Source: an uncultured Candidatus Saccharibacteria bacterium (GTDB lineage Bacteria > Patescibacteriota > Saccharimonadia > CAILAD01 > BJGX01). From it: a stretch of 39,996 nucleotides of DNA. This document shows, one piece after another, positions 33,455-37,186 of this stretch. The notes under the pieces were generated by a model that had not been told where the DNA came from, ran no database searches, and saw only the letters and a program-made list of their open reading frames with translations. Within the stretch, counting starts at the first letter, position 1, and the number at the start of each line of letters is the position of its first letter. The translations under genes and the position numbers were made by a program. Where the stretch lies: assembly GCA_964512085.1 (NCBI GenBank), contig CAZEIU010000002.1, forward strand, positions 1 to 39,996, in the 5' to 3' direction.

Positions 33455-34153
33455 CTAAATCCTAGCTTGGGCTTTGCGAGCGATTGCCATAATAGTCTCT
33501 ACGTCATCGGTGATGGTATATAGGCTAGTGTCCTCGGGGTCGATAGTTTGCATGTCTTCGGCCAGCATTTGCGAGCGGTGTAAGCCCATATCTATAGGCT
33601 CCCAAAACTTAGCACCAACGCATACAATCGGAACTTGGTGAATTTTTTGGTTTTGAACCAATGTTAATATTTCATAAAACTCGTCTAATGTACCAAAACC
33701 ACCCGGAAAAAATATATACATTCGGGCCGAAAAAGCCAGCGCGACCTTTCGAGTAAAAAAGTAATGAAAGGGTATAGAGGCGGTTTGGTATTTATTAGCA
33801 GCTTGCTCGTGTGGCAATTGGATATTTAGCCCTAGAGAGTGTCCACCGGCTTCTTGAGCGCCACGGTTGGCGGCTTCCATTATGCCCGGACCGCCACCGG
33901 TAAGGATTGTGTAGTTAAGCTCTTTTACTAATCTCGAGGCTAATTCGCGAGCTTTTATGTATAGGGGGTTTTCGGCTGTAAAACGAGACGATCCAAATAT
34001 AGTTATTTTTTTGGGGTAACGGGAGATTATGCTTAAGCCTTGAGTAATTTCTTCGTTGATAAGACAAATTTTTGACTCCGTAGAATCGGTATTATTGGGG
34101 TCGCAAGCATGCATTATTTCATCGAGAGTATGGGCTTTGGCGATATCCTTCAT
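33455..34153 (-). CDS. LOG-family (TIGR00730-type) nucleotide 5'-monophosphate nucleosidase/'lysine decarboxylase-like' protein
   Basis: 'ITIFGSSRF', 'GGGPGIMEAANRGA' and 'PGGFGTLDEFYE'. The ATG at 34153 is preferred over the TTG at 34201. Confidence 0.85.
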   Translation of the reverse strand: MKDIAKAHTLDEIMHACDPNNTDSTESKICLINEEITQGLSIISRYPKKITIFGSSRFTAENPLYIKARELASRLVKELNYTILTGGGPGIMEAANRGAQEAGGHSLGLNIQLPHEQAANKYQTASIPFHYFFTRKVALAFSARMYIFFPGGFGTLDEFYEILTLVQNQKIHQVPIVCVGAKFWEPIDMGLHRSQMLAEDMQTIDPEDTSLYTITDDVETIMAIARKAQARI

Positions 34154-34194
34154 ATTTATAATTGTAATGCTTAATATTATGGTTGCCAAGTGAA

Positions 34195-34223
34195 TTGACA
34201 AATATAGGATATTCTGATAACAT
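34195..34223 (+). promoter_or_regulatory. Candidate promoter of the DGQHR gene (TTGACA-17 nt-TAACAT); its -35 overlaps the -35 of a divergent LOG promoter
   Basis: TTGACA at 34195-34200. On the opposite strand TTGTCA is the reverse complement of 34196-34201, with TAATAT 16 nt downstream. Confidence 0.35.
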
Positions 34224-34340
34224 TCCTAAGACGCCACGACAGGTGTGGGCTGGTAAAGCACGTTCACTCAGCTGCTTGTAAAACCATCCATGCGCACTTT
34301 GTCTTGGTAGGTAGTACCCTACAGTTCGATGGAGGATCGA

Positions 34341-35375
34341 ATGGGTAAGGAAGAAGTTCAGAGGTTCAAGTTCAATCTGCTTACTCAACGTTCTATTCCG
34401 GTCTATTCTTTTGTAATGAGCGCTAATGATTTGATTAATCTTGCCCGTGTTGATAGGTTTGGCGAGTCCTCGGACGGCGTAAACCGTAAGCTCAATGAAA
34501 AGCACGCTCTCGATATTGCTCAGGCGATGATTGACGGCGAAGCCGCCATGATGCTTGATGCTATCTGTGGCGACTTGCAGGGTAATTGGGAAATCTCTAA
34601 CGGATTCTTGGTGCCTAGTGAAGATGCATTTTTGTCTATCGACGATGGCCAGCACCGTTGGTATGCAGTGACGGAGCTTCTTGTGCCCGAAGAGCGGGAA
34701 CGCTGGAGCTTTAACGTTGTTGCAACCATGGGTCTTGATCTGGTTACTCGACTGAGGATCTTTCGACAGCAGAAGATGCGCAAGCCAATCGATTCTCGAC
34801 TGGATCTTGCTCAGCGTCATGTACTCGATGAGTGGCGTAGTGAGGCCGAGAGAGAAGCCTACAATCTTATTCTGGTACTTAACTCTGAGACTGGATCGCC
34901 TCTCAAGGGCATGATCGTACTCGAGGAGACTGTTAAGCGCCCCTACGAACATCAGCATCGTGTGGCAGGTATTAACGCCAATGGTTTGTGGCAGAGTATG
35001 AAGTCGGTTATGGGTAAAAACTCACCGCTTTTCTCTCTTTCGATTGAGAAGCGCGTAGAGGTTATTCGTAACATGATTTTGTTGGCTTCGGAAACCTGGC
35101 CTACAGCGTGGGGATCTGATGAGCACATTCTATCTACTGCACGCGGCATTAACGCCGTGCTGATGCTGATGGTTTCTAGCCCAGAGTTCCGTGGCGTAAT
35201 TGGTGATGATTTCAGGGTTGAATCCCTGCGTAGAGCTTTTCAGATGGCCAAGCGCTTTAGCTGGAAAGCTTCTGCTCATAAAAACGCCAGCGTGCGTGAA
35301 ATTACCGACGGTCTAAATCAGGCCATTAAGTCTGGTCGTGCCCGCCAGGGTACTGCCGATACGATTTTAGCCTAG
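34341..35375 (+). CDS. DGQHR-domain protein (DndB-like, ParB/Srx-fold)
   Basis: 'SIDDGQHRW', with DGQHR encoded at 34644-34658. The N-terminal 'VNRKLNEKHALDIAQAM' is typical of this family. GGAGG at 34331-34335 lies 5 nt upstream of the ATG at 34341; an alternative ATG is at 34329. Confidence 0.8.
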   Translation: MGKEEVQRFKFNLLTQRSIPVYSFVMSANDLINLARVDRFGESSDGVNRKLNEKHALDIAQAMIDGEAAMMLDAICGDLQGNWEISNGFLVPSEDAFLSIDDGQHRWYAVTELLVPEERERWSFNVVATMGLDLVTRLRIFRQQKMRKPIDSRLDLAQRHVLDEWRSEAEREAYNLILVLNSETGSPLKGMIVLEETVKRPYEHQHRVAGINANGLWQSMKSVMGKNSPLFSLSIEKRVEVIRNMILLASETWPTAWGSDEHILSTARGINAVLMLMVSSPEFRGVIGDDFRVESLRRAFQMAKRFSWKASAHKNASVREITDGLNQAIKSGRARQGTADTILA

Positions 35376-35389
35376 TAGTTACATTACCA

Positions 35390-35413
35390 AGCTCTCCCTT
35401 TTGGAGGGCTTTT
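35390..35413 (+). terminator. Rho-independent terminator
   Basis: GCTCTCC (35390-35396) pairs with GGAGGGC (35402-35408), followed by TTTTT. The tail reads TTTTTACTTA. Confidence 0.65.
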
Positions 35414-35431
35414 TACTTATAAGTTAATTTA

Positions 35432-35460
35432 TTTGACCATTAAGCTAATAATTGTTAGAA
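35432..35460 (+). promoter_or_regulatory. Sigma-70-type promoter (TTGACC-17 nt-TAGAAT) for the 445-aa gene
   Basis: TTGACC at 35432-35437 and TAGAAT at 35455-35460. GGAGGA lies 6 nt upstream of the TTG start at 35504. Confidence 0.5.
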
Positions 35461-35503
35461 TACCTGTCGGGTTGTACCTTGAACCTCGATTGGAGGACGG
35501 AAC

Positions 35504-36841
35504 TTGCGAGAAACTGCCGGAAAGGCTTTTGCTCGTAAATATTTCTTTGAGTGCTATTTACCGGGCGTGATGTCGCCTCACACCTTAAGGAACAGTAATT
35601 TTCTTTTGCTTCTAGGAGAAGACTTTAGAGAATTACCGCATCTCAAGGCGCTTGATATTGAGCCTTATAGAGTATTTTCGGTAGAAAGAGATCTCGATGT
35701 TTTTCAAAGACAAAAAGCCATAAACCAAAAAGACGATCTTGGTTTTGCTCTTTATTATGGTGAATTGGCTGATTACATCAGAAGTTATATGTTCACCAAT
35801 CATCAAATTTCGGTTCTCAATCTAGATATCTGTGGGTCTTTTATGAACGGAATTGATCCTGTTATGGGTAAGCTTTTGCACTTTGCTAGACGAAATTCTA
35901 GCACTGTAATGGCGACCTACTCTAGTGCGGGCCGAGACAAGCCAATGCTAGAAGAAGGGGTGAAGGCGTTAATTCTACTTATGTGGTTAGCACCTAGCGC
36001 TGTAGAGCGGCTTGTTCAAACAATGTACGATTCTTACGCTGTCGAAAATTTTGCTGGGCAAAAGAGTGCTACCGAAGATCTTTGTAAAAATATGGTGCTA
36101 CGTCACATGTACTGGCTCAATTCTTACCTTCACCACGTTCTAATAGGTAGTTACGAATTGGGCTATATAACAGAAGACGAAATACAGGCTGCTTTTAATG
36201 AGCACAGGCAACTATGGTTAGATTTTGTGGAGTATCAAGGCGAAGAACCAATCACTTTTGGCGATATCATTGAATTTACGGATAGCTACAAAAGACCACA
36301 ATTTCAAGATGTAAATGTCGATATGAGCTTTGGTGACGTACAGCTAATGTCGTATTCTGCAAACCAAAGCTTTTTTCAAAACTGTTATTTTGTTACTTTT
36401 GAATGTAGCGGAGATTTGATTCCATTGCAGACTTGGTTGGTAGAAACAGCACTGTTAATGCGCCGTAATGAAGTTTTGGTGGTAGATGCAATGGGTAACT
36501 ACTGCCTTAACCCTATAGCGGTTGAGTCGTTATATAAGGTTGTGCTATGGAAAAACAAATTTGGTAAACCTAGCATGGTACTGCCGACAATTCCACCCAA
36601 TGCAAAAACATCTACTGATCTAGTTAAAATTAAGCCCGTTAATTCTGAAAGAAAAAGCAGGCCAAATGATCGTACAGCAGTAGATAATATTAGCGAAAAG
36701 CAAGCCAGAACAATTAGGGCAATGGCACGCAAAGGTTTAAATTCTAATCAAATTTGTGCCAAAATGGGCTTAAGAGAGGAGCTACTCCCAAACATCCGTG
36801 CCTATATGGCTGCCGTAACAAAGGCCTCTAGTAAACACTGA
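35504..36841 (+). CDS. Uncharacterised 445-aa protein: N-terminal Rossmann/methyltransferase-like region, unknown middle domain, C-terminal helix-turn-helix
   Basis: Strand/acidic pattern 'FLLLLGEDF' and 'VFSVERD'. 'VLNLDICGSF' (35813-35842) resembles the Trm1-type D-P-(F/Y)-G-S motif IV, but no GxGxG is present. The C-terminal 'KQARTIRAMARKGLNSNQICAKMGLREELLPNIRAY' looks like an HTH. TTG start. Confidence 0.6.
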   Translation: MRETAGKAFARKYFFECYLPGVMSPHTLRNSNFLLLLGEDFRELPHLKALDIEPYRVFSVERDLDVFQRQKAINQKDDLGFALYYGELADYIRSYMFTNHQISVLNLDICGSFMNGIDPVMGKLLHFARRNSSTVMATYSSAGRDKPMLEEGVKALILLMWLAPSAVERLVQTMYDSYAVENFAGQKSATEDLCKNMVLRHMYWLNSYLHHVLIGSYELGYITEDEIQAAFNEHRQLWLDFVEYQGEEPITFGDIIEFTDSYKRPQFQDVNVDMSFGDVQLMSYSANQSFFQNCYFVTFECSGDLIPLQTWLVETALLMRRNEVLVVDAMGNYCLNPIAVESLYKVVLWKNKFGKPSMVLPTIPPNAKTSTDLVKIKPVNSERKSRPNDRTAVDNISEKQARTIRAMARKGLNSNQICAKMGLREELLPNIRAYMAAVTKASSKH

Positions 36842-36847
36842 TTTTAT

Positions 36848-36872
36848 CCCTCACCAAATGGTGGGGGTTTTT
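36848..36872 (+). terminator. Rho-independent terminator
   Basis: CCCTCACC (36848-36855) pairs with GGTGGGGG (36860-36867), followed by TTTTT. The tail reads TTTTTACTTA. Confidence 0.7.
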
Positions 36873-36919
36873 ACTTAGCAAACACTACATGTAGTGCCAA
36901 AAAACATCACAAAGCACTA

Positions 36920-36949
36920 TTTACAAATGAATTTGTAGGGGTGTATAAT
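36920..36949 (+). promoter_or_regulatory. Promoter (TTTACA-18 nt-TATAAT) overlapped by a 7-2-7 palindrome (36922-36937)
   Basis: TTTACA at 36920-36925 and TATAAT at 36944-36949. TACAAAT-GA-ATTTGTA lies at 36922-36937. Confidence 0.5.
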
Positions 36950-37030
36950 CATAAGCACGAACACAGTTTTGTAAGACCACATAGACTTACAAAGGCAGTG
37001 AAAATAAAAATTAAAAGGAGGGTGTTAAAA

Positions 37031-37129
37031 GTGCCAGAACAAAATAAGATTAGTGACGAAGCTTGGGATAAACCAATGGTTTGCCCAATTGACCCCAAAG
37101 AATTGGCTGAGTGTGAGGCTTGCCAGTAA
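37031..37129 (+). CDS. 32-aa Cys-containing peptide (V/M-PEQNKISDEAWDKPMVCPIDPKELAECEACQ)
   Basis: GGAGG at 37017-37021 lies 9 nt upstream of the GTG at 37031. It has its own promoter and terminator. The longer ORF call from 36941 would begin inside the promoter. Confidence 0.45.
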   Translation: MPEQNKISDEAWDKPMVCPIDPKELAECEACQ

Positions 37130-37155: not shown

Positions 37156-37186
37156 AACCCGCTTAAACAAAAAGGCGGGTTTTTTA
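37156..37186 (+). terminator. Rho-independent terminator after the small peptide gene
   Basis: AACCCGC pairs with GCGGGTT across a 12-nt loop, followed by TTTTTT. Confidence 0.55.

What the first reader, a model, noticed from the sequence alone, without database searches (positions are those of the whole stretch)
34154..36875. Stand-alone DGQHR (DndB-like) gene paired with an uncharacterised 445-aa Rossmann-like + HTH protein: candidate undescribed DNA-modification or defence module
Seen in sequence:
- The 34341-35375 product carries the literal DGQHR motif (nt 34644-34658) and the N-terminal NRKL...I(A)QAM helix typical of the DndB/ParB-Srx fold.
- The next gene (35504-36841) has no motif set I can assign to a named family.
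- Its N-terminus alternates hydrophobic strands ending in acidic residues (FLLLLGEDF, VFSVERD).
- It contains VLNLDICGSF, which looks like a proline-less version of the Trm1-type D-P-(F/Y)-G-S amino-methyltransferase motif IV. No GxGxG SAM loop is visible.
- Its last ~45 residues look like a sigma-r4/LuxR-type HTH.
- Each gene has its own -35/-10 promoter and hairpin terminator.

Established knowledge: DGQHR proteins include DndB. They are known as accessories of phosphorothioation (dnd) and related DNA-modification loci, and some are reported next to putative methyltransferases.

Inference: no dndACDE, sspABCD, dpd/queuosine-type or restriction nuclease genes lie within at least 4 kb on either side. 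This would therefore be a minimal two-gene arrangement, a DNA-binding/nicking ParB-fold protein plus a degenerate MTase-like DNA binder. It could be a new modification, exclusion or regulatory system in a reduced genome.
Basis: partly seen in the sequence, partly recalled or inferred. Interest (0 to 1): 0.8.

Follow-up and report, generated by a model that had tools for sequence, protein, structure and literature searches.

The report
ParB-like gene with orphan methyltransferase-fold partner
In a group of tiny symbiotic bacteria (Saccharimonadia), a DndB-like DNA-associated gene is always followed by a previously undescribed gene whose predicted shape is that of a methyltransferase; together they look like an unstudied DNA-acting module, but no function has been shown.

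Summary
Gene 1 (34341-35375) is a true DGQHR/DndB-family ParB-fold protein. Gene 2 (35504-36841) is an orphan with no Pfam, NCBIfam, PADLOC or PHROG match. No dnd/ssp/dpd or nuclease genes lie within ±10 kb.

New evidence on gene 2:
- Its AlphaFold model (pLDDT 86.5) has an N-terminal class-I methyltransferase fold with a helical lid and a flexible linker to a three-helix tail. SAM-contact positions (G38, E61, D108) are invariant across the superfamily. GxGxG and known catalytic motifs are absent, and no sequence-level MTase match exists.
- In its close clade it sits directly downstream of the DGQHR gene in 7 of 7 distinct loci, despite at least three flank arrangements.
- In four more distant loci its relatives pair with a GHKL (MORC-like) ATPase.

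Caveats:
- The DGQHR gene is usually solo (5 of 5 sampled loci) in a conserved groESL-pgi slot.
- All paired copies form one subclade, so pairing may be a single event.
- Gene 2 has its own promoter.
- Neither gene was found in phage, plasmid or viral collections.

Best reading (about 0.4): an NTPase-assisted nucleic-acid modification module analogous to DpdA/DpdB. Defence, nicking and sigma-r4 claims are unsupported.

The parts
34195..34223 (+). Promoter-like site upstream of the DGQHR gene (TTGACA-17-TAACAT with TG). It lies in the divergent intergenic region shared with the LOG-family gene on the minus strand.
   Evidence: Consensus scan, 10 of 12 matches. This is a pattern match only.
34341..35375 (+). 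Gene 1: a 344-aa DGQHR/DndB-family ParB-fold protein (alternative start at 34329).
   Evidence: - Pfam DndB scores 40.2 bits against a cut-off of 29.1. TIGR03187 scores 55.8 bits.
- 102 homolog clusters exist, 57-71% identical within Saccharimonadia.
- The AF2 model has pLDDT 93.5. Its best PDB fold match is the ParB-like PadC, and that match is weak.
- A GGAGGA Shine-Dalgarno sequence precedes 34341.
34644..34658 (+). DGQHR motif (D102-R106), the equivalent of the ParB Box II / P-motif.
   Evidence: The stretch translates to DGQHR. G103, Q104, H105 and R106 are invariant in 40 homologs, and D102 is nearly invariant (at least 90%).
35389..35411 (+). Intrinsic-terminator-like hairpin plus T-run after gene 1.
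   Evidence: Scan result. A GC-rich hairpin at the same place is present in all 7 paired loci with different stem sequences. Solo loci L007 and L008 have it too.
35433..35461 (+). Promoter-like site for gene 2 (TTGACC-17-TAGAAT with TG).
   Evidence: Scan result. Equivalent -35/-10 boxes are present in L002, L012 and L013.
35474..35480 (+). GTACCTT element in the gene 2 leader, positionally conserved 26-37 nt upstream of the start codon in 4 loci.
   Evidence: The 7-mer itself is common by chance; only its position is notable.
35504..36841 (+). Gene 2: a 445-aa orphan protein with a methyltransferase-fold domain, a helical lid and a C-terminal tri-helical tail.
   Evidence: - No family hit in any library.
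- 33 close clusters and 113 representatives among 1.84 billion proteins.
- AF2 model pLDDT 86.5, pTM 0.79.
- The listed Foldseek hits in PDB are class-I MTases and those in BFVD are mostly so.
35591..35938 (+). Rossmann-like core of gene 2 (about residues 30-145, strands beta1 to beta5). It carries motif-I-like LLLLG38, motif-II-like E61, motif-III-like G86-E87-L88 and motif-IV-like N106-L-D108-I-C110-G111.
   Evidence: Secondary structure. L36, G38, E61 and D108 are the only invariant positions across 33 superfamily members.
35819..35836 (+). NLDICG (N106-G111) directly after beta4, at the position of methyltransferase motif IV.
   Evidence: Invariant within the family. In the wider superfamily only D108 is invariant and G111 nearly so; C110 varies (Q, T, E, D or Y).
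36695..36829 (+). C-terminal three-helix HTH-like tail (residues 398-442), joined by a low-confidence linker (residues 350-393).
   Evidence: Helices 398-409, 414-421 and 425-442. Weak HTH_32, IclR, HTH_24 and Tc3 hits appear in some members. No significant PDB match.
36848..36867 (+). Terminator-like hairpin plus T-run after gene 2.
   Evidence: 8-bp stem with 6 GC pairs, followed by TTTTT.

Best explanation
The two genes form a chromosomal, NTPase-assisted nucleic-acid (most likely DNA) modification module.

- Gene 2 is read as the catalytic subunit. It would be a highly divergent class-I methyltransferase-fold enzyme that binds SAM or a related adenosine cofactor through G38, E61, G86-E87 and N106/D108. 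It would hold its substrate under a large helical lid and be tethered to DNA, or to its partner, by a flexible linker ending in a three-helix HTH-like tail.
- Gene 1 is read as a DGQHR ParB-fold nucleotide-binding protein that loads on or moves along DNA and positions or activates gene 2. This is how the ParB-like ATPase DpdB is required for DpdA to modify DNA.
- In other lineages the same enzyme family uses a GHKL (MORC-like) ATPase as its NTPase partner.
- No nuclease accompanies the pair, so it is read as modification-only (epigenetic or protective marking, or regulation) rather than a complete restriction system.

Shown: gene identities, fold prediction, motif conservation, gene adjacency and alternative partners.
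Inferred: cofactor binding, catalysis, DNA as the target, physical or functional coupling with the DGQHR protein, and NTP dependence.
For: - Fold: the AF2 model is confident (pLDDT 86.5). The listed Foldseek hits in PDB are class-I SAM methyltransferases, and those in BFVD are mostly methyltransferases or capping enzymes. Domain-level TM reaches 0.60 (PmtA 9ko3), 0.55 (TYW2) and 0.51 (RsmD-like 2fhp).
- Motif topology: the only invariant positions across the wider superfamily (L36/G38 after beta1, E61 at the end of beta2, D108 after beta4) lie in loops that contact SAM in this fold. Faint RsmD-type and Methyltransf_35 hits occur in distant members.
- Adjacency: the DGQHR gene is immediately upstream on the same strand in 7 of 7 distinct close-clade loci. 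About 9 further clusters are inferred to share a contig from matching contig lengths. Adjacency persists through at least 3 different flank arrangements.
- Alternative partner: gene 2 relatives in four loci (L003, L015, L016, L023) sit next to a GHKL HATPase_c_3 ATPase and HTH proteins. The ATPases of L003, L016 and L023 are mutually homologous; the L015 one is related only in the ATPase core.
- Precedents: DpdB, a ParB-like ATPase, is required for DpdA-catalysed DNA modification (PMC10164549). MORC/paraMORC GHKL ATPases occur with DNA methylases in R-M operons (PMC2292703). A DndB-like protein binds ATP and GTP, and ParB-fold/methyltransferase fusions bind ATP (bioRxiv 10.1101/2025.10.10.680097, also PMC12704722).
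- The DGQHR motif is essentially invariant.
Against: - No sequence-level link to any methyltransferase was found. Pfam and NCBIfam give nothing, PDB profile searches are non-significant, and hhalign against PrmC gives probability 0.1.
- The GxGxG loop is reduced to one Gly, and motif IV (NLDICG) matches no known catalytic class. Cys110 is not conserved in the superfamily.
- Foldseek E-values are modest (about 1e-4 to 1e-3).
- The DGQHR gene is solo in 5 of 5 independently sampled loci and is more conserved than gene 2, so it has a function that does not need gene 2.
- All paired DGQHR genes form one subclade, so the 7 of 7 adjacency may count as a single evolutionary event.
- A terminator and a separate promoter lie between the genes in at least 4 of 7 loci.
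- A distant superfamily member (P0221) stands alone among archaeal-type housekeeping genes.
- No modified base, cofactor binding or protein-protein contact has been shown.
Confidence: 0.4

Rival explanations
1. Regulatory pair. Gene 2 would be a ligand-sensing DNA-binding regulator, with a catalytically dead methyltransferase-fold domain as a SAM or nucleotide sensor plus an HTH tail. The DGQHR protein, like DndB, would be a nucleotide-modulated transcriptional regulator. Together or separately they would control chromosomal genes rather than modify DNA.
For: - DndB is described as a regulator of the dnd operon, and as ATP-modulated in later work (PMC4507180; references quoted).
- The G-loop is degenerate and no known catalytic motif is present.
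- Gene 2 has a C-terminal HTH-like tail.
- Each gene has its own promoter and terminator.
- The context is housekeeping, vertically inherited and non-mobile.
- wHTH (TrmB-type) genes recur next to related loci.
Against: - Many polar and aromatic residues are invariant in the motif-IV loop and the lid (N106, D108, C110, R144, D145, E151, N196, R200, H211, several Trp/Tyr). That fits a substrate pocket better than a simple sensor.
- The recurrent linkage of relatives to a 530-670-aa GHKL ATPase suggests an energy-dependent DNA transaction.
- The third tail helix is unusually hydrophobic (A/V-rich) for a sequence-reading recognition helix.
Confidence: 0.2
2. Independent neighbours. The DGQHR gene is a lineage-conserved solo gene with its own function. 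Gene 2 was inserted once downstream of it in one Saccharimonadia ancestor and has stayed there by inertia, with no functional coupling.
For: - All paired DGQHR genes fall in a single subclade.
- The DGQHR gene is solo in 5 of 5 other loci and occupies the same groESL-pgi slot with or without gene 2.
- Transcription units are separate. The hairpin is the DGQHR gene's own terminator, and solo loci have it too.
- Gene 2 relatives exist without any DGQHR gene.
- A breakpoint is unlikely by chance within a 60-130 nt spacer.
Against: - The pair kept strict adjacency and orientation while its flanks changed at least three times (window, L001, L002 versus L005/L012-14).
- In three loci the spacer is only 60-80 nt with no room for a promoter, which implies read-through co-transcription.
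- In the four more distant loci sampled gene 2 relatives sit beside a DNA-associated NTPase. Landing next to another NTPase class is therefore suggestive of functional replacement.
Confidence: 0.25
3. Anti-phage or anti-plasmid defence module. The DGQHR NTPase would sense or scan foreign DNA, and gene 2 would be the effector or self-marking component of a novel innate immune system.
For: - ParB/DGQHR and GHKL/MORC ATPases are typical components of R-M-like conflict systems (PMC3632139; PMC2292703).
- Gene 2 is rare and patchy. It was found in only 2 of 185,579 species representatives, and the pattern scan did not even recover the window's own genome.
- In L001 a HerA/mad8-like ATPase lies just downstream.
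Against: - Neither protein nor any partner hits a PADLOC model.
- No nuclease or toxin partner is present.
- The flanks are housekeeping genes, not defence islands.
- There is no presence in phage, plasmid or IMG/VR collections.
- Inheritance looks vertical in a fixed chromosomal slot.
- DGQHR conservation of 57-71% is high for an arms-race gene.
Confidence: 0.1

Closest known systems
DpdA/DpdB of the Dpd 7-deazaguanine DNA-modification system
   Same: Both are two-component arrangements in which a DndB-related ParB-fold NTPase (DpdB) accompanies a DNA-modifying enzyme. In Dpd the ATPase is required for the modification reaction (PMC10164549). This is the best mechanistic analogue for 'DGQHR protein plus modifying enzyme'.
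   Different: - DpdA is a TGT-like TIM-barrel transglycosylase, whereas gene 2 is predicted to have a Rossmann methyltransferase fold with no TGT signal.
- No dpdC-K restriction genes or preQ0 biosynthesis genes are nearby.
- Coupling between the two proteins is untested here.
DndB (regulator of dndBCDE phosphorothioation) and the TIGR03187 DGQHR-domain family
   Same: Gene 1 carries the DGQHR motif, passes the Pfam DndB threshold and matches TIGR03187 over nearly its full length.
   Different: - No dndA/C/D/E or dndFGH genes are linked.
- The Pfam match covers only the N-terminal half (profile positions 8-156 of 338).
- The dnd-specific TIGR04172 model is far below threshold (17 bits against 450).
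- The gene sits in a conserved housekeeping slot and is mostly solo.
ParB-fold proteins fused to methyltransferase domains (N6_N4_Mtase, Methyltransf_23, UPF0020, MT-A70)
   Same: Both combine a ParB-type NTP-binding fold with a methyltransferase-fold module. Some such fusions bind ATP (bioRxiv 10.1101/2025.10.10.680097, also PMC12704722).
   Different: Here the two modules are separate genes with separate promoters. The methyltransferase-fold partner belongs to none of those Pfam families and lacks their catalytic motifs.
MORC/paraMORC GHKL ATPase and DNA methylase R-M operons
   Same: Distant and intermediate clades of the gene 2 family are adjacent to HATPase_c_3 GHKL ATPases. This parallels GHKL-methylase linkage in R-M-like systems (PMC2292703).
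   Different: - No SF-II helicase or restriction endonuclease is seen in these loci.
- The GHKL proteins hit no PADLOC system, apart from weak REase_II-type GHKL similarity for one of them.
- The window itself has no GHKL gene.
Class-I SAM-dependent methyltransferases (e.g. RsmD/Cons_hypoth95, PmtA, Rickettsia PKMT1/2)
   Same: The predicted beta1-alphaA-beta2-...-beta5 Rossmann topology matches. So do an acidic residue at the end of beta2, a G-[DE]-L after beta3 and a conserved Asp after beta4. These structures are the best matches.
   Different: There is no significant sequence similarity and only a single Gly in motif I. Motif IV is NLD(I/F/Y)xG rather than (D/N/S)PP(Y/F/W) or PC. A large helical insertion and a C-terminal HTH-like tail are added.

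Membership tests
DGQHR domain / DndB family (PF14072, TIGR03187) | Conserved DGQHR motif in a ParB/Srx-like N-terminal domain | tested here: met
   nt 34644-34658 translate to DGQHR. G103, Q104, H105 and R106 are invariant, and D102 nearly invariant, in 40 homologs.
DGQHR domain / DndB family (PF14072, TIGR03187) | Score above the curated model cut-off | tested here: met
   Pfam PF14072 scores 40.2 bits against a cut-off of 29.1, though only over profile positions 8-156 of 338. TIGR03187 scores 55.8 bits, marginally below its 58.85 cut-off, over positions 5-272 of 276.
DndB sensu stricto (phosphorothioation regulator) | Genomic linkage to dndCDE (and dndA/iscS) | tested here: not met
   No dnd genes lie within ±10 kb of the window locus or in any homolog locus inspected.
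DndB sensu stricto (phosphorothioation regulator) | Match to dnd-specific equivalog models (TIGR04172; DndB equivalog) | tested here: not met
   TIGR04172 scores 17.2 bits against a cut-off of 450. No other dnd-specific NCBIfam model was reported.
ParB-CTPase-fold NTPases | Nucleotide (CTP/ATP/GTP) binding through the Box II arginine | not testable with these tools
   R106 is invariant, but binding needs biochemistry. The fold match to ParB-like PadC is weak (E=0.34, TMt 0.50).
Class-I SAM-dependent methyltransferases | Seven-stranded Rossmann-like alpha/beta fold | tested here: met
   AF2 model pLDDT 86.5 with the order beta1 to beta5, helical insert, beta-hairpin. The listed PDB hits are MTases, and the listed BFVD hits are mostly MTases or capping enzymes. 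This is a predicted structure, not an experimental one.
Class-I SAM-dependent methyltransferases | Glycine-rich motif I (GxGxG or close variant) | tested here: not met
   The motif is LLLLG38-E-D-F-R-E. Only one Gly is conserved across the family and superfamily.
Class-I SAM-dependent methyltransferases | Acidic residue at the C-terminal end of beta2 (binds the ribose hydroxyls) | tested here: met
   E61 closes beta2 (residues 57-61) and is invariant in the family and in 33 superfamily members.
Class-I SAM-dependent methyltransferases | Recognised catalytic motif IV: (D/N/S)PP(Y/F/W) for N-MTases, or PC plus ENV for C5-MTases | tested here: not met
   The motif is N106-L-D-I-C-G. There are no prolines, the Cys is variable in the superfamily, and no second conserved Cys or ENV motif exists.
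Class-I SAM-dependent methyltransferases | Significant sequence or profile similarity to a curated MTase family | tested here: not met
   - No Pfam or NCBIfam hit.
- PDB profile searches are non-significant.
- hhalign against PrmC gives probability 0.1.
- Only faint sub-threshold RsmD-type and Methyltransf_35 hits occur in two distant relatives.
Class-I SAM-dependent methyltransferases | SAM binding and methyl transfer | not testable with these tools
   This requires biochemistry, or a docking or co-folding tool that was not available.
Dpd (DpdA/DpdB) DNA modification system | TGT-like transglycosylase DpdA next to ParB-like DpdB, with dpdC-K | tested here: not met
   Gene 2 has no TGT signal and a Rossmann fold rather than a TIM barrel. 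No dpd genes are nearby.
Known anti-phage defence systems (PADLOC-DB v2) | Any component matching a defence-system HMM | tested here: not met
   Genes 1 and 2 have no hits. Partner proteins of relatives give none beyond weak GHKL-REase similarity. Newer DefenseFinder models were not available.
HTH DNA-binding domains (reader: sigma-70 r4 / LuxR type) | Significant match to an HTH family model | tested here: inconclusive
   AF2 predicts a three-helix tail. HTH_32 is hit in 5 of 18 members (best E=6.6e-4), with IclR, HTH_24 and Tc3 weaker; the window's own tail has none. No sigma r4 or LuxR hit was found.

The most novel reading that the evidence does not exclude
Gene 2 founds a previously unrecognised superfamily of methyltransferase-fold enzymes. 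It has about 100 representatives among 1.8 billion proteins, no annotation, and was seen here in Saccharimonadia-type (CPR) contigs and one archaeal-looking contig. On this reading the enzymes work obligatorily with a DNA-clamp NTPase, interchangeably a DGQHR ParB-fold protein or a GHKL/MORC-like ATPase. They would install a DNA (or DNA-bound substrate) modification by atypical chemistry at the NLD(I/F/Y)xG site. That would be a new class of NTP-dependent epigenetic marking system in ultra-small episymbionts.
Probability: 0.2. Interest if true: 0.8.

Novelty: new variant of a known kind. Interest (0 to 1): 0.55.

Why it matters
- If the pair is a functional module, it adds a third enzyme fold to the theme of a ParB-like or GHKL NTPase helping a DNA-modifying enzyme. 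The other two are the DndCDE machinery and the TGT-like DpdA.
- It would give a first functional handle on an entirely unannotated protein superfamily.
- It concerns Saccharimonadia (CPR), whose reduced genomes keep few non-essential genes. A conserved chromosomal DGQHR protein in a fixed slot next to groESL is itself an unexplained feature of their biology.
- The interchange of ParB-fold and GHKL partners would be a natural experiment on how unrelated NTP-gated DNA clamps serve the same effector.
- If the genes are merely neighbours, the finding reduces to a new orphan family plus a solo DGQHR homolog. That is useful for annotation but ordinary.

Tried and rejected
1. Sequence-level assignment of gene 2 failed everywhere.
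   - Pfam, NCBIfam, PADLOC and PHROGs gave nothing.
   - PDB profile searches with the full family and with a broader superfamily core gave only non-significant hits (SepL, RFC, a few MTases).
   - hhalign against the window's own PrmC gave nothing.
2. The third large-database search, with superfamily profile A4, returned only 3 proteins. The cluster look-up returned no names. Taxonomic spread of the superfamily therefore remains poorly defined.
3. The 607-aa protein after a solo DGQHR gene (L009) and the 170-aa neighbour in L008 are not diverged gene 2 copies (hhalign probability at most 0.2).
4. The HTH and 416-aa partners of distant clades are not cryptic DGQHR proteins.
5. No GHKL homolog exists in the 40-kb window.
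6. The fold search for gene 1 found no close solved structure. ParB-like PadC was only weak and SspE ranked 39th, and the sequence profile against PDB found nothing.
7. The mobile-element hypothesis found no support. There are no relatives in GenBank phages, PLSDB plasmids or IMG/VR.
8. A C5-cytosine or RNA m5C type mechanism based on Cys110 (NLDICG resembles DAPCSG) was considered and set aside. The Cys is replaced by Q, T, E, D or Y in superfamily members, and no second conserved Cys exists.
9. A HEPN domain in the C-terminal half of gene 1, as proposed for DndB, was considered. I saw no conserved Rx4-6H motif in the conserved-position list and consensus (inspection only, not a formal test).
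10. The reference-genome and metagenome pattern scans are limited by their peptide patterns. '2 of 185,579 species' is therefore a lower bound, not a census.

Full report
**1. The observation**

Both ORFs are real and lie at the stated coordinates.

Gene 1 (34341-35375; an upstream ATG at 34329 is less likely because GGAGGA precedes 34341) encodes 344 aa. nt 34644-34658 translate to DGQHR. It passes the Pfam DndB threshold (PF14072, 40.2 bits against 29.1, N-terminal half of the model). It matches TIGR03187 'DGQHR domain' over almost the whole model at 55.8 bits, just under the 58.85 cut-off. The dnd-specific TIGR04172 is far below threshold.

Gene 2 (35504-36841, TTG start preceded by GGAGGA) encodes 445 aa. 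It has no hit in Pfam, NCBIfam, PADLOC or PHROGs.

Promoter-like and terminator-like sites flank each gene. The source record is GCA_041906685.1, contig JAYRIS010000022.1. All genes within ±10 kb are housekeeping (PrmC, RF1, L31, VanY-type peptidase, LOG-family protein; PRTase, OMP decarboxylase, transglycosylase, ABC transporter, S2, EF-Ts, RRF, UppS), with no dnd, ssp, dpd or restriction genes.

**2. What gene 2 is**

The family is small. There are 33 clusters at 90% identity, 30-46% identical to the query and none annotated. An exhaustive profile search of 1.84 billion representatives finds 113 proteins, 75 of them at E<=1e-30. Named records are Candidatus Saccharimonadia/Saccharimonadales.

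An AlphaFold2 model built on 32 sequences is confident (pLDDT 86.5, pTM 0.79). It shows:
- an N-terminal beta-alpha-beta core (beta1 33-35, beta2 57-61, beta3 82-85, beta4 104-106, beta5 133-141);
- a long helical insertion (146-261);
- a beta-hairpin/helix region (275-327);
- a low-confidence linker (about 350-393);
- a three-helix tail (398-442).

Foldseek returns class-I SAM-dependent methyltransferases for all listed PDB hits. These include Rickettsia PKMT1/2, RsmD-like 2fhp, PmtA 9ko3 (TMt 0.60), TYW2 (0.55), aTrm4 and RlmI/RlmKL-type enzymes. The listed BFVD hits are mostly methyltransferases or viral capping enzymes. E-values are modest, about 1e-4 to 1e-3.

Family-invariant residues sit exactly where this fold contacts SAM: L36/G38 after beta1, E61 at the end of beta2, G86-E87-L88 after beta3, and N106-L-D108-I-C110-G111 after beta4. 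In an alignment with intermediate and very distant relatives, the only invariant positions are L36, G38, E61 and D108. That pattern is the signature of a conserved cofactor pocket.

Several points argue against a canonical enzyme:
- The GxGxG loop is reduced to one glycine.
- Motif IV fits no known catalytic class.
- Cys110 is not conserved in the superfamily.
- No sequence-level relationship to any methyltransferase could be shown. Only faint RsmD-type and Methyltransf_35 hits appear in two distant members.

The tail gives weak generic HTH hits in some members (HTH_32 in 5 of 18, IclR, HTH_24, Tc3) and nothing significant in PDB. 'HTH-like' is reasonable, but 'sigma-r4/LuxR-type' is not supported. 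Its last helix is A/V-rich and ends in RRK, so a partner-docking role is also possible.

**3. What gene 1 is, and how it is distributed**

The DGQHR family is larger (102 clusters) and better conserved (57-71% identity among the closest species) than gene 2. The AF2 model is excellent (pLDDT 93.5). It has no close solved relative: the best match is the ParB-like PadC (E=0.34) and SspE ranks 39th. This fits a divergent ParB/Srx fold. The DGQHR motif and a GVNRK...H-A..I...M block are invariant or nearly so.

Five loci chosen through the DGQHR protein alone all lack gene 2 within 6-7 kb. They are L007 (a Paceibacterota record), L008 (labelled Verrucomicrobiae but with Saccharibacteria-like synteny), L009, L021 and L022.

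Many loci share the synteny groES-groEL -> DGQHR -> ... pgi -> ftsX/ABC, with or without gene 2. The DGQHR gene is therefore a vertically inherited chromosomal gene that normally works without gene 2.

**4. Is the pair a unit?**

*For.* In the close clade of gene 2, every distinct locus has the DGQHR gene immediately upstream on the same strand, 7 of 7 (window, L001, L002, L005/6, L012, L013, L014). About nine further clusters share identical longest-contig lengths between the two hit lists, which is an inference. Adjacency survived at least three flank arrangements:
- pair after groESL (L005, L012-14);
- pair before groESL (L002);
- unrelated flanks in L001 and in the window (LOG ... pyrE-like/pyrF).

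Three loci have spacers of only 60-80 nt with no room for a promoter.

*Against.* All paired DGQHR genes fall in one subclade of the DGQHR tree, and solo genes occupy sister clades. The association may therefore be a single acquisition followed by vertical descent. All paired loci keep a GC-rich hairpin after the DGQHR stop codon, and solo loci L007 and L008 have it too. Four paired loci keep a -35/-10 promoter for gene 2. Gene 2 is thus largely a separate transcription unit.

**5. The alternative partner**

The more distant relatives of gene 2 have no DGQHR neighbour. Instead, four loci place the gene next to a 530-670-aa GHKL ATPase (HATPase_c_3), together with Cro/C1-type or winged-helix HTH proteins, in differing gene orders. 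The loci are L003/L004/L011, L015, L016 and L023. The ATPases of L003, L016 and L023 are mutually homologous (E=1e-113, 1e-57 and 5e-37). The L015 ATPase shares only a short stretch of the ATPase core.

GHKL/MORC-type ATPases, like ParB-fold proteins, are NTP-gated DNA-associated dimers. They are documented partners of DNA methylases in R-M-type operons (PMC2292703). A ParB-like ATPase (DpdB) is required for DNA modification by DpdA (PMC10164549). DndB-like and ParB-methyltransferase fusion proteins bind ATP/GTP (bioRxiv 10.1101/2025.10.10.680097, also PMC12704722).

The simplest unifying reading is that the gene 2 family is an effector enzyme working with a DNA-associated NTPase, and that in one Saccharimonadia lineage the resident DGQHR protein took over that role.

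Two limits apply. A very distant member (P0221) stands alone in an archaeal-looking housekeeping context. No partner protein matches any PADLOC system.

**6. Mobile element or defence?**

Neither gene has relatives in GenBank phages, PLSDB plasmids or IMG/VR contigs. Flanks are housekeeping genes, and there is no nuclease, toxin or helicase. Pattern scans found gene 2 in only 2 of 185,579 species representatives and in 5 metagenome contigs. This is a lower bound given the pattern method, which did not recover the window's own genome. Rarity fits an accessory function. Nothing positive points to defence.

**7. Verdict**

- Best explanation (confidence about 0.4): a chromosomal, NTPase-assisted nucleic-acid modification module. 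Gene 2 would be a highly divergent methyltransferase-fold enzyme tethered by an HTH-like tail, and the DGQHR ParB-fold protein its NTP-dependent DNA-loading partner, analogous to DpdA/DpdB.
- Rivals: independent neighbours after a single insertion (0.25), a regulatory pair with a non-catalytic sensor domain (0.2), and a defence system (0.1).
- Membership: gene 1 is a member of the DGQHR/DndB domain family but not a DndB in the functional sense, because it has no dnd linkage. Gene 2 has the fold but fails several defining sequence features of class-I methyltransferases. It should be described as 'methyltransferase-fold, family unassigned'.
None of its stated refutation criteria was met, but the defence, nicking and sigma-r4 elements lack support, and the two-gene-system claim is weaker than simple co-occurrence suggests.
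- Novelty: a new variant of a known theme (NTPase plus DNA-modifying enzyme), built around an undescribed protein superfamily.
- Interest: 0.55.

Noticed in passing
window 35474-35480; L002 7966; L012 5975; L013 3057: A (C/T)GTACCTT element sits 26-37 nt upstream of the gene 2 start codon, just after the -10 box. It appears in the four paired loci that have their own gene 2 promoter. It could be a conserved leader or operator element. The 7-mer alone is frequent by chance elsewhere in the loci.
   Followed up: partly
window 36941-37129 (+), promoter 36920-36949, hairpin about 37158-37185: A 62-aa Cys-rich ORF (...MVCPIDPKELAECEACQ) has the best promoter match in the region (TTTACA-18-TATAAT, 11 of 12) and its own hairpin plus T-run. 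It is not called in the NCBI record, and Logan calls an antisense 97-aa ORF there instead. It may be an unannotated small protein.
   Followed up: no
L015 6001-6654 and 6778-7386: The gene 2 homolog in this GHKL-linked locus is split into two ORFs that together cover the family profile. It is either a frameshifted pseudogene or an assembly error.
   Followed up: no
L001 9665-12466: A 933-aa DUF8128/DUF87/TrwB-like ATPase lies directly downstream of the pair in the 1.19-Mb Saccharimonadia chromosome. It hits PADLOC mad8 (E=2.4e-14) and HerA models. It could be a T4SS/HerA-type ATPase or a defence component.
   Followed up: partly
L022 4657-5382 and L023 6177-6920: Homologous TrmB-type winged-helix proteins (E=3e-29) flank a solo DGQHR gene in L022 and a gene 2 + GHKL locus in L023. 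They could be a shared regulator linking the two kinds of locus.
   Followed up: partly
L008, L009, L005, L012-L014 (groES-groEL -> DGQHR -> ... pgi -> ftsX/ABC): The DGQHR gene occupies a conserved syntenic slot next to groESL across many Saccharimonadia-type contigs, and it is 57-71% identical between species. That is unusually core-like behaviour for a DndB-family protein and is unexplained.
   Followed up: partly
window 33455-34201 (-): A LOG/SLOG-cluster4 family protein (PF03641 E=4.5e-26, PF18306 E=4.6e-16) is divergently transcribed from the DGQHR gene, with overlapping promoter-like sites at 34161-34223. This neighbour is not conserved in other loci.
   Followed up: partly
P0233 and P0243 (distant superfamily members): The gene-2-type core occurs in domain fusions. 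P0233 has a weak N-terminal winged-helix (HTH_45-like) hit before the core. P0243 has an N-terminal PghP-like poly-gamma-glutamate hydrolase domain (PF05908, E=3e-40).
   Followed up: no
L007 493-4352: A solo DGQHR gene in a Paceibacterota contig lies 3-6 kb from a run of DNA-repair or restriction-type genes (ATP-cone + Mrr_cat, PDDEXK_1, MGMT, UDG).
   Followed up: no
L017/L018 4659-6365: A 568-aa distant superfamily member sits among archaeal-type genes (aIF5B-like GTPase, a diphthamide synthase fragment). This suggests the superfamily also occurs in archaea, possibly DPANN, as a stand-alone gene.
   Followed up: no
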